A stretch of 64,000 nt of DNA. It comes from a virus. Every line of letters begins with the position of its first letter. The stretch's first letter is position 1. Shown here piece after piece: positions 59,806 through 64,000 of the stretch. Made by a program: the position numbers and the translations under genes. The notes beneath the pieces are model-generated. The model saw nothing but the letters and a program-made list of their open reading frames with translations, was not told the DNA's origin and did not search any database. Location: UHGV virus genome UHGV-0090440; one strand, given 5' to 3'.

Positions 59806-60609
59806 CTATTGTTCCTTTTTGGTGTTCTTTTGGAGCGCATCGATAACGCCTTGTGGCATGATTAAACTGATTGCCGGACTCATTACTGCATCATCCAGTA
59901 GAGAACCAGTTAACGTGATGGCGACAGCGTTCTCTAAACCTTTGGTTGCCTGAGTGGTTGACGTTTTAATGCGACCTGTAAGGGCTACGACACTCTCACT
60001 TGCTGAGTTAATTTCGGAGAGTAAAACTTCGGCGGCTGTCACTGCTTCCCGTAGAGCATCAATTTCATCCTGAGTAATGACCGGAGCCTGAGCGCCCCCA
60101 GCACCACCCTGTCCACTATTGCTATCACCACCAGCACTTCCAGCAGCTTCTATTTTTGCGTTAATGGCGTTCATGGCAGTTTTCAGAGCATCAAGTTTTA
60201 GCGCCGTCAATGCGTCCGTTAGAGATTGCGGAATGGAAACATTCCCCATCCCCTCAACAAGGGCGAAAGCAGGTATGGGGGCCAGCTCGTTACCTTTTAC
60301 GTAGCATTCCCAGCCAATCTTCATCTGTAACAGCTCTGATGGCTTGGTGTATGGGGAAAGAGAATCAGCCAGTAATGAAGACGCTTTGCTGGCCTCATTT
60401 AGCTGTTCAGAAAAGCCAAGCAATTGAGTAGTCCAGGCCGAAACAGAATCAGGATAGGTTTTATCGGCGTGAACTATTCCCTGTATGGCGCTGGCGAGTG
60501 ATGAGGCTTTTACAGACGCTGCCCGGCTTATGGTTATAGATTCTGGTGTAGAGATACCGGCATCTGACAGAATTTTGAAGGCTTTAACTTCACCTATTGA
60601 ATCAAGCAT
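59806..60609 (-). CDS. tail/baseplate-associated protein candidate
   Basis: ORF track start 60708; ATG 60609 overlapping the PAAR stop preferred (268 aa); Gly-rich linker. Confidence 0.4.
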   Translation of the reverse strand: MLDSIGEVKAFKILSDAGISTPESITISRAASVKASSLASAIQGIVHADKTYPDSVSAWTTQLLGFSEQLNEASKASSLLADSLSPYTKPSELLQMKIGWECYVKGNELAPIPAFALVEGMGNVSIPQSLTDALTALKLDALKTAMNAINAKIEAAGSAGGDSNSGQGGAGGAQAPVITQDEIDALREAVTAAEVLLSEINSASESVVALTGRIKTSTTQATKGLENAVAITLTGSLLDDAVMSPAISLIMPQGVIDALQKNTKKEQ

Positions 60610-60893
60610 TATGCAACCTGAAAAATATCCTCGCCGTTGGCGATAACAGAACCACAAGAAAGCGGATCGCCTACACAGACAACTCCCTTTCCACCTATCG
60701 AAAACCATACTCGCGTCGATACAGCTGCCCCTGGATGTGCACTGTTACCGTCCGTGTGACTGGGAAACATGGCACCATCTACAACAATTGGCTTACCGTT
60801 AACGGTGAACCAGGGAACAGTTTCAGCTACCAGTCGCGGCGGAAATCCTCCGTGACCAGAACAAAGGGTGTCGCTGGTGGCTATTGCGCTCAT
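60609..60893 (-). CDS. PAAR-repeat spike-tip protein
   Basis: 94 aa with PAAR-like Gly/Pro/His/Cys pattern (CSGHGGFPP, PSHTDGNSAHPGA, CVGDPLSCGS). Confidence 0.55.
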   Translation of the reverse strand: MSAIATSDTLCSGHGGFPPRLVAETVPWFTVNGKPIVVDGAMFPSHTDGNSAHPGAAVSTRVWFSIGGKGVVCVGDPLSCGSVIANGEDIFQVA

Positions 60894-60974
60894 TCTTCAC
60901 CTCCGGGTTATCCTCCTATTGTCATCACTTTGTTATTTCGTCATTCAAACTGAGAGTTAAATTTCGGAATATTT

Positions 60975-61135
60975 CTGTATTCTCACTTCATTCTCAAATA
61001 AATCTCACTGTCAGACCATAATTCATTGGGTGATTAAGGTATTCTCAAAATGAACTCAATAATCACTCCTTTTTATCTCTTTTGGTGTGGATTTTTGGGT
61101 GCTTCTCTTTTAAAATTGCATTTTGGTTCTCAAAT
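60975..61135. promoter_or_regulatory. parC-like centromere/promoter region
   Basis: Iterated (A/G)TTCTCA(A/C) elements (60978, 60990, 61040, 61125) plus degenerate copies, upstream of parM. Confidence 0.45.
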
Positions 61136-61159
61136 GTGTCTCAGAAGTGGAGCAAGAAG

Positions 61160-62116
61160 ATGCGCATTTTTATCGATGATGGTTCAACCAATATCAAAAT
61201 GCTGTGGGAGCACGACGGGGAAACTCGCACTCACATCAGCCCTAACAGCTTTAAGCGCGGATGGTCAGCAACATTTGGTGCTGGCAAGCCGTTTAACTAT
61301 GTCATTGACGACGAAAAGTATTCGTATGATTTGATCTCGCCAGATGTTCTGCCGACGAATAACGTGGAATGGCAATACAGCCCGCTTAACGTCCTGGCTG
61401 TTCACCATGCCCTGCTGACAAGTGGCATTGAGCCGCAGGAAGTAGAAATTGTGGTCACGCTGCCTCTGGCGGAGTTTTACGACGACGACGCGCAATACAA
61501 TCTCGATAACATCGAGCGCAAGAAAGCCAGTCTTATGCGCCCCGTCACGCTGAATAAAGGCAATGTGTTCACGATTAAGAAAGTTACGGTACGACCGGAG
61601 TCTATTCCGGCAGGAATTGGCCTGTGCGACAATCTGAACCCTGCCCATTCTGTTCTTATCGTCGATTTGGGTGGAACTACCCTTGATGTTTCAATGGTCG
61701 CCGGGCAAATGACGGCAGTTTCCCGTGTTTTTGGCGATTCGAATCTTGGTGTATCACTGGTCACCAGGGAAGTAAGGCAAGCACTTGCAAGGGCCAATAC
61801 CGAAACGTCAAATTACAATGTCGATCAGCTCATTATTAACCGCCACGATGAAGATTATCTGAACGACAATATCAATGACCCATCAGCGATTGATGATGTG
61901 AAAAAGGCCATTGCCGCAAGCATTGACCGTTTGTGTACCCGCGTTCTTGATGTGATTGGCGACTTTAAAGGATATACGCATGTCATGGTGATCGGTGGTG
62001 GCGCACCGCTGGTGGCAGATGCAATTCGCGAGCAAGTTAATATTCGTGATGACCGTTTCTTCGTGGCGGATGACCCGCAACTTGCTCTTGTTCATGGCCT
62101 GAAAGCAATCGGTTAA
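61160..62116 (+). CDS. parM: ParM/StbA actin-like partition ATPase
   Basis: ORF track start 61082; ATG 61160 (MRIFIDDGSTNIKM) preferred; near-colinear with R1 ParM as recalled (ISPNSFKR, VNVLAVHHALLTSG, LIVDLGGTTLDVS, YTHVMVIGGGA). Confidence 0.85.
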   Translation: MRIFIDDGSTNIKMLWEHDGETRTHISPNSFKRGWSATFGAGKPFNYVIDDEKYSYDLISPDVLPTNNVEWQYSPLNVLAVHHALLTSGIEPQEVEIVVTLPLAEFYDDDAQYNLDNIERKKASLMRPVTLNKGNVFTIKKVTVRPESIPAGIGLCDNLNPAHSVLIVDLGGTTLDVSMVAGQMTAVSRVFGDSNLGVSLVTREVRQALARANTETSNYNVDQLIINRHDEDYLNDNINDPSAIDDVKKAIAASIDRLCTRVLDVIGDFKGYTHVMVIGGGAPLVADAIREQVNIRDDRFFVADDPQLALVHGLKAIG

Positions 62117-62123
62117 CGAGGTA

Positions 62124-62468
62124 ATGTCCATGTCTCAGGAACGTAAGAAAGTGATGATTTATCTTCGCCCAGAGGCTTATGCCAATGAAAAGGCGGCGAG
62201 CGAGAAGATAAAAAAACATAGCGATATGGCAAGAACCGCATTGTTGGCAGGGCTTGCGCTGGGAGAAGTCGATAGCAGGCTTCCAGGATTACTGGCTTCC
62301 CTGCTGACCGAAGATAATAATCCGGAGCTGATCCGAAAAATGCTGGCATCCTTCCTGGAACTACCAGCTGCGGCTGAGGAGCGCCCTGCCTCCATTGAGC
62401 CAGCGAAGGAGCAAGTTGTTGCCAAAAGCGCGTCGGCGCGCAATCTGGCTGACTCTCTACCTGATTGA
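62124..62468 (+). CDS. parR: ParR-like centromere-binding protein
   Basis: 114 aa directly after parM; shares the ALLAGLAL...LLASLLTE pattern with R1 ParR as recalled. Confidence 0.6.
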   Translation: MSMSQERKKVMIYLRPEAYANEKAASEKIKKHSDMARTALLAGLALGEVDSRLPGLLASLLTEDNNPELIRKMLASFLELPAAAEERPASIEPAKEQVVAKSASARNLADSLPD

Positions 62469-62486
62469 CAGAAGATGTGCTGGTTT

Positions 62487-62512
62487 AAGGCTGCAAATTG
62501 CAGCCTTTTTTA
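62487..62512 (+). terminator. intrinsic terminator
   Basis: AAGGCTGCA-AAT-TGCAGCCTT followed by TTTTTAT, 20 bp after the parR stop. Confidence 0.6.
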
Positions 62513-62520
62513 TGCCTTAA

Positions 62521-62592
62521 TGGTGCCTAATTGGTGTTAATCTGGCACCAGTTAGGTGCTGTTATGGTGCAGTTTTGTATCTGGTTCCAATT
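62521..62592. promoter_or_regulatory. candidate operator/centromere for the ParA system
   Basis: Repeated TGGTGC/GCACCA elements (62521, 62544, 62555, 62565) and TGGTTCCAATT (62582-62592). Confidence 0.35.
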
Positions 62593-62755
62593 TGGGGCTG
62601 ATTTCGTGTTAAACAGGATGCAATATAAGGTGTATTTGGTCTGATTGATGTTATACTTTGCCAAACATTCATGACTCCATTATAGAGCCTGTCCCGCATC
62701 AAAAAGGCTCTTATCTGGAACCGTTTTGATACCAAAATCACACCGAGGAACGGAT

Positions 62756-63397
62756 ATGATTATATTGGTAGCCAGCCAAAAAGGTGGCTGTGGCAAATCA
62801 ACCACCAGCGTAAATATTTGTGCGGAGCTTGCCCGCGCAAATAAGGACGTAGTTCTACTTGATGCAGATAAGCAAGGAACATCTGCCCGTTGGGCATCGG
62901 ACCGTAATGCGGCAGAGGTTTCTCCAGTAATTCATTGCGTCCAGAAGTTTGGGAATATTCGTGAAACACTTCTTGATCTGGACAAGCGTTATGAATTTGT
63001 GGTTGTTGATACCGCTGGTCGTGATAGCAAAGAAATGCGCACCGGTATTACTGCGGCGGATGTTTTGCTTGTTCCATTCAGGCCATCTCAGCCAGATTTA
63101 GACACTCTGGCGCATTTTGTTGAAGTCTTTGAAGAGGCTTTGGATCTGATGCCTAATCCTAGCATTAAGGCGTGCGCAGTCTTAACAATGGCCCCATCCA
63201 ATCCGGTTGTGAATGAAGCCAATGAGGCCAAAGAGTACCTGGCTGAATATCCGCAACTGAAGTTGCTGAAAACCATCATTCGCGATCGCAAGGTTTACCG
63301 CGATTGTATGGCTGAAGGGAAGGGCGTTGTTGAGATGGACAACGGGAAAGCTAAAGGTGAAATCCAGATGTTGGTTAAGGAGTTATTAAGTGATTAA
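62756..63397 (+). CDS. parA: ParA/ParF-type partition ATPase
   Basis: ORF track start 62726; ATG 62756 preferred (GAGGAA RBS); deviant Walker A KGGCGKST; about 213 aa. Confidence 0.8.
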   Translation: MIILVASQKGGCGKSTTSVNICAELARANKDVVLLDADKQGTSARWASDRNAAEVSPVIHCVQKFGNIRETLLDLDKRYEFVVVDTAGRDSKEMRTGITAADVLLVPFRPSQPDLDTLAHFVEVFEEALDLMPNPSIKACAVLTMAPSNPVVNEANEAKEYLAEYPQLKLLKTIIRDRKVYRDCMAEGKGVVEMDNGKAKGEIQMLVKELLSD

Positions 63398-63677
63398 GCC
63401 TCGTAAATCGGTAAAAGCCCCCGAAGTAAAAGACCTCGATCTTGAACGCCGAATTGAGGCTTTTGCCAGCAAAGCTGATTTGGTGCCGGGTGAGCAACCA
63501 GAAGACAACAAAGTGCTCGATAAGGACGCCCCACGTGATTTTAAATCCATTCGTGTTGGCTTCAATGAATACGAGTACCAGGTACTTGATGCGTTAAGCA
63601 AAAAGCATAATCGCAGCAAATTGAATATGATCCGCCATGCTATCCTCATGTTAGCGGAGTCTGAGGAAGCAAAATAA
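63390..63677 (+). CDS. small ribbon-helix-helix partition adaptor (ParG-like)
   Basis: 95 aa, GTG start overlapping the parA stop with AAGGAG RBS; C-terminus fits an RHH fold (KLNMIRHAILMLAE). Confidence 0.55.
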   Translation: MIKPRKSVKAPEVKDLDLERRIEAFASKADLVPGEQPEDNKVLDKDAPRDFKSIRVGFNEYEYQVLDALSKKHNRSKLNMIRHAILMLAESEEAK

Positions 63678-63721
63678 AGTCTTTCAGGGTGGTTTTAGAA
63701 CTTAAAAAATCTTGAACCAAA

Positions 63722-63777
63722 GATGCACCAATACACTACTAATTTGGTGCACCTTTACATCCTTTTTGGTTCCAATT
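63722..63777. promoter_or_regulatory. candidate downstream centromere-like site
   Basis: Palindrome GCACCAAT...ATTTGGTGC (63725-63751) and a second copy of TGGTTCCAATT (63767-63777). Confidence 0.3.
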
Positions 63778-63946
63778 GTGTACCATTTTTCATTAATTTA
63801 CTTATGCGCAAAAGTGGGCTTCATGAAAAAGCTCATTATTGAAATAACGATAGAAAGCAATTTCTAATCAACTAGTGGTTGTCAGCCTATTCGGCTTATA
63901 AGATCATACGCTGTTATACGTTTTTTACGCTTTGAGGAATCCACAA

Positions 63947-64000
63947 TGAGTGAGGCAGAAGCCCGCCCGACTAACTTTATTCGTCAGATCATCGATGAAG
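63947..64000 (+). CDS. glnS: glutaminyl-tRNA synthetase-like ORF, first 18 codons only
   Basis: Translation MSEAEARPTNFIRQIIDE matches the E. coli GlnRS N-terminus as recalled; truncated by the window end. Confidence 0.55.

What the first reader, a model, noticed from the sequence alone, without database searches (positions are those of the whole stretch)
60975..63777. Two complete partition systems of different types in tandem
A ParMR system with upstream iterated TTCTCA elements is immediately followed by a small ParA plus ribbon-helix-helix adaptor module flanked by TGGTGC/GCACCA repeats. The ParA module is also bracketed by an identical 11-bp direct repeat TGGTTCCAATT (62582 and 63767), which could be centromere elements or the footprint of cassette acquisition. 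P1 itself uses a type Ia parAB, so this is a replicon-maintenance swap.
Basis: partly seen in the sequence, partly recalled or inferred. Interest (0 to 1): 0.5.

Follow-up and report, generated by a model that had tools for sequence, protein, structure and literature searches.

The report
Two partition systems of phage-plasmid D6
This stretch of a D6-like phage-plasmid carries two intact, independently transcribed plasmid-partition systems side by side, an arrangement that is real but ordinary, since the genes are already annotated in phage D6 and this pairing of system types is common on plasmids.

Summary
The window is a D6-like phage-plasmid: 95.7% identical to phage D6 and 99.6% to E. coli plasmid NZ_CP058619.

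It carries parM-parR (type II; ParM is 54% identical to R1 ParM). A conserved terminator follows, then a small Walker ParA (43% identical to pB171-type ParA) and a 95-aa protein. Profile matches, an AlphaFold model and fold search point to a C-terminal ribbon-helix-helix domain in that protein.

All ten of the strongest lag-11 autocorrelation windows in the 64 kb fall in the three intergenic regions. Each therefore holds an 11-bp-phased iteron array:
- TCTCA units lie upstream of parM.
- TGGTRCC-like units lie both upstream and downstream of parA-orf4, as in pB171 par2.

The exact 11-mer TGGTTCCAATT is one iteron unit in each flanking array, not an insertion scar. Recombination junctions between variants lie elsewhere.

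All four genes are under strong purifying selection (dN/dS 0.02-0.09). At least 108 plasmids keep the whole locus.

The D6 record and a 2019 paper already list these genes. A 2026 survey finds type II plus RHH-ParB type I systems on 971 plasmids. The centromere map and the independent exchange of each module add detail. No function was tested.

The parts
60981..61149 (+). parC-like centromere and operator of the ParMR system. About 10 TCTCA-core units sit in three clusters (60981/60992/61003; 61043/61054/65/76; 61104, 61128/61139) around a conserved TAAAAT -10-like hexamer at 61111-61116.
   Evidence: TCTCA enrichment, P about 5e-9. Lag-11 autocorrelation z = 4.5 and among the top windows of the 64 kb. 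L003 has one extra 11-bp unit, and L005 has a diverged ParR together with diverged TGTCTC units. ParR binding is inferred.
61160..62116 (+). parM (stbA): actin-like segregation ATPase, 318 aa.
   Evidence: Pfam StbA_N 1.6e-69 plus the ParM C-terminal domain. 54% identical to R1 ParM over the full length. R1 D170 is conserved as D169 in LIVDLGG. dN/dS 0.019.
62130..62468 (+). parR (stbB): adaptor of the type II system, 112 aa.
   Evidence: PF10784 2.9e-11. pB171 ParR structure 2jd3 matches at E 5.7e-7. phrog_8671 'partition protein' 3.8e-58. dN/dS 0.082.
62487..62513 (+). Intrinsic terminator (9-bp stem AAGGCTGCA/TGCAGCCTT plus a T run) that ends the parMR operon.
   Evidence: Terminator scan. 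The hairpin is conserved in all seven variants even where its flanks have diverged.
62521..62625 (+). Upstream iteron array A of the ParA system. Five 11-bp units lie at 62521-62575 (TGGTGCC, TGGTGTT, TGGCACC, AGGTGCT, TGGTGCA). After a 6-bp phase shift, four more lie at 62582-62625.
   Evidence: Highest lag-11 autocorrelation in the window, 0.529. Phase map and motif enrichment. The same kind of array is kept in variants whose intergenic sequence is only about 56% identical.
62649..62657 (+). Putative parA promoter, an extended -10 (TGTTATACT).
   Evidence: Nearly conserved in all variants, as GTTATACT, GTTATAGT or GCTATACT; coordinates. Not found by the two-hexamer consensus scan, so this is inferred.
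62684..62749 (+). Iteron array B, between the promoter and the parA ribosome-binding site. The clearest units are GGAACC 62717, GATACC 62728 and CACACC 62739, 11 bp apart.
   Evidence: Phase map and motif hits. L003, L004, L006 and L007 have clearer GGTGC/GTACC/GGTACC units at the same place.
62756..63397 (+). parA: small Walker-type partition ATPase, 213 aa, with no N-terminal DNA-binding domain.
   Evidence: 43% identical to pB171-type ParA, E 4e-58. TP228 ParF structure matches at E 3e-18. NCBIfam ParA_partition scores 158 bits, below its cut-off of 180. dN/dS 0.036.
63390..63677 (+). orf4 (D6 orf61): 95-aa putative centromere-binding protein. It has a conserved basic N-terminus (M-[IV]-K-x-R), a helix at residues 15-29, a linker, and a C-terminal ribbon-helix-helix domain at residues 52-94.
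   Evidence: A family of 124 representatives. Members hit the RHH Pfam families NikA-like (18/60) and RHH_1 (13/60). The profile matches CopG over the whole 41-aa domain at E 0.17. The AlphaFold model has pLDDT 87.9. All top fold matches are RHH proteins, including ParG. dN/dS 0.091. DNA binding is inferred.
63714..63790 (+). Downstream iteron array: seven 11-bp units in one phase (GAACCA, GCACCA, a degenerate unit, GTGCACC, a degenerate unit, GTTCCA, GTACCA). It contains the second copy of TGGTTCCAATT at 63767-63777.
   Evidence: Phase map and enrichment, P 2.7e-4. Lag-11 autocorrelation among the top ten windows. Variants without glnS have a longer array here, followed by a terminator.

Best explanation
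The locus holds two independent, functional plasmid-partition systems that keep the low-copy D6-like prophage plasmid in both daughter cells.

System 1 is a type II ParMRC system.
- ParR dimers bind the 11-bp-phased TCTCA iterons around the parMR promoter.
- This forms the partition complex and represses the operon.
- The complex caps ATP-ParM filaments, whose growth pushes sister plasmids apart.

System 2 is a type Ib ParABS-like system.
- Dimers of the 95-aa ribbon-helix-helix protein coat the TGGTRCC-like iteron arrays upstream (around its own promoter) and downstream of parA-orf4.
- Its basic N-terminal tail stimulates the ATPase of nucleoid-bound ParA.
- The resulting ParA gradient spaces the plasmids over the nucleoid.

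A terminator and non-overlapping iteron motifs keep the two systems transcriptionally and mechanically separate.

Shown here: gene identity, intactness, purifying selection, the iteron arrays and their conservation, the RHH fold prediction, and the operon boundary.

Inferred from family knowledge: which protein binds which array, autoregulation, ATPase stimulation, and stabilisation of the plasmid.
For: - Protein identities.
- RHH fold of orf4.
- Three 11-bp-phased arrays hold all ten of the strongest lag-11 windows in the 64 kb, with motif enrichments.
- The arrays persist in variants whose intergenic DNA has diverged to 41-58% identity. Synonymous divergence in parA is also near saturation there (dS about 0.9), so the hexamers are being kept by selection.
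- Serratia and Aeromonas plasmids with distant homologues of the parA-orf4 module also carry GGNACC-type units at 11-bp phase upstream.
- On ordinary plasmids the module stands alone next to the replication gene (RepB in Kacie_13, RepM in pACICU1b), as expected of a self-sufficient par system.
- ParR and its iterons co-vary in L005.
- dN/dS is 0.02-0.09 for all four genes.
- At least 108 plasmids carry the full locus.
- The terminator after parR is conserved.
- No TGGTRCC hits lie in the parM upstream region.
- Dual arrays upstream and downstream are described for type Ib systems of pB171, pSM19035 and pESBL (PMC7602700).
Against: - Nothing here tests function: no binding, stability or localisation data exist for this locus in the papers I could read.
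- The RHH assignment rests on weak sequence scores (CopG E 0.17; Foldseek E about 0.1, though probability reaches 0.99) plus a monomer model in which the strand is not formed.
- ParA falls below the NCBIfam equivalog cut-off (158 against 180 bits).
- The downstream array in this window is short and degenerate: five good units of seven.
- In Shigella pINV, two par systems are each functional on a test vector yet contribute little to the native plasmid (PMC6519299). One system here could likewise be nearly dispensable.
Confidence: 0.8

Rival explanations
1. Only one of the two systems partitions the prophage plasmid. The other is retained for a different reason, for example as an incompatibility or exclusion weapon against plasmids with the same centromere type, as insurance in particular hosts or temperatures, or as a regulator of neighbouring genes such as glnS.
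For: - Each module is exchanged independently among otherwise near-identical D6-like backbones, as expected if centromere type matters in competition.
- pINV shows temperature-dependent, partly masked par systems (PMC6519299).
- SCP1 shows one dominant system of two (PMC13245405).
- The downstream array lies about 150 bp upstream of glnS.
Against: - Both modules have the full parts list and equally strong purifying selection.
- All seven variants examined keep both.
- The RHH domain and iteron core stay the same across the exchanged ParA-module types, so the exchange does not obviously change specificity.
Confidence: 0.12
2. The two copies of TGGTTCCAATT are a target-site duplication or recombination scar marking insertion of the ParA cassette next to a pre-existing ParMR locus.
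For: The 11-mer is exact and occurs only at these two places in the 64 kb. The ParA module does behave as an exchangeable unit.
Against: - The left copy lies inside the upstream array, with five units of the same array outside the 'bracket'.
- Both copies fit the array phase and consensus.
- Homologous positions in variants read TGGTGCCAATT or TGGCTCCACTT.
- The exchange junctions map to about 62469 and about 63640, not to 62582 and 63767.
- A shared 11-mer arises in 2.5% of shuffles.
- A Serratia homologue has GGAACCAATT as one of its own units.
Confidence: 0.03
3. The ParA-like ATPase and RHH protein are not a partition pair. Instead they are a VirC1/VirC2-like or relaxosome-accessory pair acting in DNA processing or transfer, or the RHH protein is an antitoxin or copy-control repressor.
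For: ParA also matches VirC1 models (Pfam 1e-12; NCBIfam 3e-14). Orf4-family members match the NikA-like, TraY and antitoxin RHH families. A 2019 paper labels the gene 'cop'.
Against: - 121 of 123 matching plasmids are typed non-mobilizable, and no relaxase is annotated in D6 or NZ_CP058619.
- The VirC1 scores are far below the cut-off (52.9 against 313 bits), while ParA_partition scores 158.
- ParA is 43% identical to the experimentally studied pB171-type ParA.
- No toxin gene is adjacent.
- The RHH hits reflect the shared fold.
Confidence: 0.03

Closest known systems
Double par locus of E. coli virulence plasmid pB171 (par1 = parMR type II; par2 = parAB type Ib with parC1 and parC2)
   Same: - A type II ParMR system and a small-ParA system with an RHH adaptor lie directly adjacent.
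- ParA is 43% identical and ParM 43% identical to the pB171-type proteins in p786605_2.
- ParR matches the pB171 ParR structure.
- The ParA operon is flanked by iteron arrays upstream and downstream, like parC1 and parC2.
   Different: - In pB171 the two operons are divergent and share the central regulatory and centromere region. Here they are co-directional, separated by a terminator, and have non-overlapping motifs.
- The RHH adaptor is unrelated in sequence to pB171 ParB: BLASTP E 2.3, and hhalign finds only a 25-column N-terminal match.
- The iterons differ: TGGTRCC-like here, against A/T-rich ATGA-type repeats in the pB171-type spacer.
ParMRC of plasmid R1
   Same: - ParM is 54% identical over its full length, with the ATPase aspartate conserved.
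- The adaptor gene lies downstream.
- Iterons of 11-bp period lie upstream, on both sides of the promoter region. The 5+5 iteron layout of R1 parC is from my own knowledge.
   Different: - The iteron sequence is different (TCTCA core).
- The units sit in three clusters of 3, 4 and 2-3 rather than two blocks of five.
- ParR is only distantly related, and its best solved relative is pB171 ParR.
ParF-ParG-parH of plasmid TP228 (type Ib)
   Same: - Small Walker ATPase: ParF matches at E 3e-18 over the full length.
- The adaptor has a flexible N-terminal tail plus a C-terminal RHH domain, and ParG is the third-ranked fold match over its full length.
- The centromere is made of short repeated boxes. 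The ParG arginine-finger-like tail and the parH boxes are from my own knowledge.
   Different: - Sequence identity to ParF is much lower than to pB171-type ParA.
- Orf4 has no detectable sequence match to ParG.
- An array downstream of the operon is present here.
Escherichia phage D6 orf58-orf61 (MF356679) and D6-like plasmid pYU39_89
   Same: It is the same locus: 95.7% nucleotide identity and the same four genes in the same order and context. D6 labels them StbA, StbB, 'possible ParA' and hypothetical. The pYU39_89 paper lists cop, parA, stbB and parM as its partition system.
   Different: None of the records or papers I could read annotates the centromere arrays, the terminator, the RHH fold of orf61 or the modular exchange. 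The D6 paper itself (PMC5800970) was not available to me.

Membership tests
Type II partition system (ParMRC) | Actin-fold ATPase ParM with intact nucleotide-binding motifs | tested here: met
   StbA_N 1.6e-69 and the ParM C-terminal domain 1.8e-55. 54% identical to R1 ParM. The DDGST, DLGGTTLD and IGGGA motifs are present. R1 D170 corresponds to D169 here.
Type II partition system (ParMRC) | Small adaptor ParR encoded directly downstream of parM | tested here: met
   PF10784 2.9e-11. pB171 ParR 2jd3 matches at E 5.7e-7. The gene starts 13 nt after the parM stop.
Type II partition system (ParMRC) | Iterated centromere (parC) upstream, overlapping the promoter | tested here: met
   Ten TCTCA-core units, mostly 11 bp apart, lie on both sides of a conserved TAAAAT. 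Unit number varies in L003, and the units co-vary with ParR in L005. Binding itself was not tested.
Type II partition system (ParMRC) | ParM filament formation, capture by ParR-parC, and plasmid stabilisation | not testable with these tools
   Needs polymerisation assays, imaging and stability assays.
Type Ib partition system (small ParA plus RHH centromere-binding protein) | Walker ATPase of about 200 aa with deviant Walker A (KGGxxK[ST]) and no N-terminal DNA-binding domain | tested here: met
   213 aa with QKGGCGKST at residues 8-16. Full-length match to ParF. 43% identical to pB171-type ParA.
Type Ib partition system (small ParA plus RHH centromere-binding protein) | Small adaptor with a ribbon-helix-helix DNA-binding domain, encoded downstream of and coupled to parA | tested here: met
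   8-nt overlap with the parA stop. Family members match RHH Pfam families. Arc-like PHROG 2.4e-4. CopG matches at E 0.17 over the whole domain. AlphaFold pLDDT above 90 over residues 41-90. All top fold hits are RHH proteins. The fold is predicted, not solved.
Type Ib partition system (small ParA plus RHH centromere-binding protein) | Arrays of short repeats near the operon serving as centromere and operator | tested here: met
   11-bp-phased TGGTRCC-like arrays upstream (A and B, around the promoter) and downstream. They are kept in diverged variants and in Serratia and Aeromonas homologues. Binding was not tested.
Type Ib partition system (small ParA plus RHH centromere-binding protein) | The adaptor's N-terminal tail stimulates the ParA ATPase | not testable with these tools
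   Only a hint. The N-terminus M-[IV]-K-x-R is nearly invariant in the family (M1 and R5 in at least 90% of sequences), and pB171 ParB begins MVKKP.
NCBIfam NF041546 ParA_partition (equivalog) | Score at or above the curated cut-off of 180 bits | tested here: not met
   158 bits, E 2.1e-46, full-length match. It is a relative that falls outside the curated equivalog.
pB171-type double par locus | Divergent parMR and parAB operons sharing one central centromere and regulatory region, with cross-regulation | tested here: not met
   The operons are on the same strand and separated by a conserved terminator. There are no TGGTRCC hits in the parM upstream region. The TGGTGT and GGGTGC words seen there are not conserved in L003, L006 or L007.
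pB171-type double par locus | The adaptor of the ParA system is homologous to pB171 ParB | tested here: not met
   BLASTP E 2.3. hhalign probability 1.3%.

The most novel reading that the evidence does not exclude
The two orthogonal partition modules are independently swappable cassettes in D6-like phage-plasmids. Carrying two unrelated centromere types is then an adaptation to partition incompatibility: a phage-plasmid that lands in a cell already holding a plasmid or related prophage with one matching par type can still segregate with the other. Module exchange, with junctions right after the parR stop and inside the conserved RHH-coding end of orf4, would be driven by that competition.
Probability: 0.15. 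Interest if true: 0.45.

Novelty: already known. Interest (0 to 1): 0.2.

Why it matters
D6-like phage-plasmids are widespread in E. coli, Shigella and Salmonella, including invasive and drug-resistant lineages. How they stay in the cell is therefore of practical interest.

This analysis adds to the existing annotation in four ways:
- It maps the probable centromeres in coordinates.
- It assigns the unannotated 95-aa gene as the likely ribbon-helix-helix adaptor.
- It shows that the two systems are separate operons.
- It shows that each module is shuffled independently among otherwise near-identical elements.

That gives clear constructs for stability and incompatibility experiments. It does not reveal a new kind of system. 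The type II plus RHH-ParB type I combination is reported on 971 plasmids of PLSDB.

Tried and rejected
1. Cross-talk as in pB171. I noticed TGGTGT (61083) and GGGTGC (61097) in the parM promoter region. They are not conserved in L003, L006 or L007, which keep the same RHH domain, and no hit of at least 6/7 exists there. Rejected.

2. The 11-mer as a cassette scar. Rejected.

3. Homology of Orf4 to pB171 ParB. None is detectable beyond a short N-terminal resemblance.

4. Direct sequence search of Orf4 against PDB and Pfam. This was empty. Only the family profile and structure prediction gave the RHH link.

5. The search for homologous proteins returned only close relatives. The exhaustive profile search was needed to reach further.

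Distant loci were taken from the plasmid collection instead.

7. The A. baumannii pACICU1b homologue showed no clear 11-bp GGNACC array, so the motif is not universal in the family.

8. pSa1423-90k (L012) looked like a frameshift-rich assembly and was not used.

9. The D6 genome paper (PMC5800970) and the pB171 paper (PMC64986) are not held. pB171 accessions were not in the plasmid collection. A pB171-type locus was reached through the 2jd3 ParR sequence instead.
Full report
**What the window is**

The region 60900-63900 is 95.7% identical to Escherichia phage D6 (MF356679, 56880-59879). It is 99.6% identical to a 91-kb E. coli plasmid, NZ_CP058619. In all, 123 plasmid records match, and 108 of them cover at least 80% of the 3 kb. 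Of the 123, 121 are typed non-mobilizable.

The element is therefore a D6-like phage-plasmid, a distant relative of P1, and not P1 itself. The D6 record calls the four genes orf58 'StbA type plasmid stability protein', orf59 'StbB type', orf60 'possible ParA partitioning function' and orf61 'hypothetical'. A 2019 paper on the D6-like plasmid pYU39_89 lists 'cop, parA, stbB and parM' as its partition system.

The whole D6 annotation holds no other partition genes. Its RepA-like initiator (orf42) lies about 11 kb away. The closest plasmid likewise has none annotated.

**Checking the observation**

The ORFs are as described:
- parM, 61160-62116
- parR, 62130-62468
- parA, 62756-63397
- a 95-aa ORF, 63390-63677, that overlaps the parA stop by 8 nt

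The 11-mer TGGTTCCAATT is exact at 62582 and 63767 and nowhere else in the window. By itself it is only marginally unusual: 50 of 2000 shuffles of the two intergenic regions share a word of 11 or more bases.

The strong signal is periodicity. I computed the lag-11 autocorrelation of 115-nt windows across the whole 64 kb, with no motif assumed. The ten highest values all fall in the three intergenic regions of this locus:
- IG1, 60901-60981
- IG2, 62461-62541 (maximum 0.529, against a mean of 0.252 and sd of 0.045)
- IG3, 63681-63701

Motif counts agree with this:
- TCTCA on the + strand: 6 in 60960-61159, against 0.13 expected.
- TGGTRCC at 6 of 7 or better: 9 in IG2 against 1.1 expected, 5 in IG3 against 0.55 expected, and none in IG1.

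**The proteins**

- ParM has full-length Pfam matches (StbA_N 1.6e-69, ParM C-terminal 1.8e-55). It is 54% identical to R1 ParM and 43% identical to the pB171-type ParM. The aspartate essential in R1 ParM (D170) is conserved.
- ParR matches PF10784 and the solved pB171 ParR (2jd3, E 5.7e-7).
- ParA is a 213-aa Walker ATPase with QKGGCGKST. It aligns over its full length with TP228 ParF (E 3e-18) and is 43% identical (E 4e-58) to the ParA of a pB171-type double par locus that I located in plasmid p786605_2. It scores 158 bits on NCBIfam ParA_partition, below the cut-off of 180.

The 95-aa protein has no direct Pfam or PDB match. An exhaustive profile search found a family of 124 representatives, all 55-130 aa with few exceptions. 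The family alignment shows:
- a nearly invariant basic N-terminus, M-[IV]-K-x-R;
- an IExFA helix;
- a variable linker;
- a conserved C-terminal block, FKxIRVPFNEYEYxxLExxAxxxGRSKLNxIRxA.

Family members match the RHH families NikA-like (18 of 60), RHH_1 (13 of 60), DUF6290, RHH_7 and TraY. The profile aligns with CopG over its whole 41-residue domain at E 0.17, and the window protein matches an Arc-like PHROG at 2.4e-4.

The AlphaFold model (mean pLDDT 87.9) has helices at 15-29, 60-72 and 77-94, preceded by an extended segment at about 50-58. Every top Foldseek hit is an RHH protein. These include CopA_SO (probability 0.99, rmsd 1.5 A over 43 residues), the partition protein ParG (rank 3), CopG, Arc, TacA1 and NikA.

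I take the RHH assignment as well supported, though predicted rather than solved.

**Anatomy of the non-coding DNA**

*IG1.* TCTCA-core units lie at 60981, 60992 and 61003; at 61043, 61054, 61065 and 61076; and at 61104, 61128 and 61139. They sit on both sides of a conserved TAAAAT at 61111.

*After parR.* A 9-bp-stem terminator lies at 62487-62507, followed by a T run. It is conserved in all variants, even where the surrounding sequence has diverged. The two modules are therefore separate operons.

*IG2.*
- Array A has five consecutive 11-bp units at 62521-62575 (TGGTGCC, TGGTGTT, TGGCACC, AGGTGCT, TGGTGCA).
- A nearly conserved extended -10 (TGTTATACT) lies at 62649-62657.
- Array B has its clearest units at 62717, 62728 and 62739, just before the ribosome-binding site.

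*IG3.* Seven units lie in one phase at 63714-63790: GAACCA, GCACCA, a degenerate unit, GTGCACC, a degenerate unit, GTTCCA and GTACCA. The second 11-mer belongs to this array.

The layout, with arrays around the promoter and again downstream of the operon, is the one described for type Ib systems of pB171 (parC1 and parC2), pSM19035 and pESBL.

**Comparative evidence**

Six further D6-like elements (D6 and L003-L007) all keep parM-parR-parA-orf4 in this order, whereas glnS downstream is present or absent.

Their IG2 and IG3 can be as little as 41-58% identical to the window. That is about what neutral divergence predicts, given dS of about 0.9 in parA. Yet every one keeps a lag-11 peak (z = 3-6) and TGGTRC, GGTACC or GGCACC units on both sides of parA-orf4. 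The hexamers are therefore under selection. The RHH part of Orf4 is nearly invariant across these variants, which fits an unchanged core motif.

Distant homologues of the module behave the same way:
- A Serratia IncI1-typed plasmid and an Aeromonas plasmid also show GGNACC-type units at 11-bp phase upstream.
- In plasmid 'unnamed2' of Enterobacteriaceae bacterium Kacie_13 and in A. baumannii pACICU1b, the module stands alone next to the replication initiator, as a self-sufficient partition module would.
- pACICU1b shows no such motif, so the iteron sequence is not universal in the family.

On the ParMR side, L003 has one extra 11-bp unit. L005 combines a diverged ParR (62% identical) with a diverged IG1 built of TGTCTC units.

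All four genes are under strong purifying selection, with dN/dS of 0.019, 0.082, 0.036 and 0.091. Neither system is decaying.

**The 11-mer and the cassette idea**

Sliding identity shows real modular exchange.
- L004 is about 99% identical to the window through parM and parR. It falls to 45-78% across IG2, parA and most of orf4, then returns to 84-98% in IG3 and glnS.
- L005 shows the converse pattern.

Fine alignments place the left junction immediately after the parR stop codon (about 62469). The right junction lies inside the conserved 3' end of orf4 (about 63640).

Neither junction coincides with an 11-mer. The homologous iteron units in variants read TGGTGCCAATT or TGGCTCCACTT. So the 11-mer is simply two like units of the centromere arrays.

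**Comparison with the known**

The closest system in organisation is the pB171 double par locus. I could inspect a pB171-type copy (L017). There the ParB(CopG)-ParA and ParM-ParR operons are divergent around a shared spacer, and the literature describes shared regulation. Here the operons are tandem, insulated by a terminator, and have different motifs. The RHH adaptor is unrelated in sequence to pB171 ParB, although the ParAs are clearly homologous. The locus therefore works like pB171 par1 plus par2 but is not that architecture.

[quoted passage not shown] It finds type I RHH-ParB plus type II on 971 plasmids, a combination it describes as previously reported.

**Verdict**

The finding is real and the main interpretation is correct, but it is ordinary and already annotated in D6 and its relatives.

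The new details are these:
- the centromere map;
- the RHH assignment of orf61;
- the operon boundary;
- the independent exchange of the two modules.

Function (binding, stabilisation, incompatibility) remains untested.

Noticed in passing
window 63948-64000 (runs off the end); L001 7046-8707: A full glutaminyl-tRNA synthetase gene (glnS) sits just downstream of the partition locus on this phage-plasmid. It is present in D6, L003 and L004 but absent in L005-L007. In those three the downstream iteron array is longer and ends in a GC-rich terminator.
   Followed up: partly
L003 (NZ_LT906557) about 1905-1938, homologous to window 61127-61149: One extra 11-bp unit (AATGTGTCTCA) lies next to the parM start. 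This is copy-number variation of the ParR iterons between otherwise similar elements.
   Followed up: partly
window about 62469 and about 63640, against L004 and L005: There are sharp mosaic junctions. The parA-orf4 module and the parMR module are each exchanged independently among near-identical D6-like backbones. Synonymous divergence between the window and D6 is 0.39 in parA but 0.09 in parM.
   Followed up: yes
L012 (NZ_MK356557, pSa1423-90k): In this record the homologous locus is broken into many short ORFs. It looks like a frameshift-rich assembly rather than genuine gene decay.
   Followed up: no
window 62684-62711: An inverted repeat (AGAGCC ... GGCTCT) lies in the parA 5' leader. It is conserved in L005 but replaced in L003, L004, L006 and L007, and it may simply be two opposed iteron units.
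   Followed up: no
window 60609-60893 (-): A PAAR-motif protein (homologue of P1 upfC) ends about 90 bp from the first ParR iteron, so the partition locus is wedged directly against virion or baseplate-associated genes.
   Followed up: no
window 63390-63404; L017 1632-1646 (-): The Orf4 family and the otherwise unrelated pB171-type ParB both begin M-[VI]-K-(K/x)-(P/R). This may be a shared ParA-contact peptide, matching the 43% identity of the two ParAs.
   Followed up: partly
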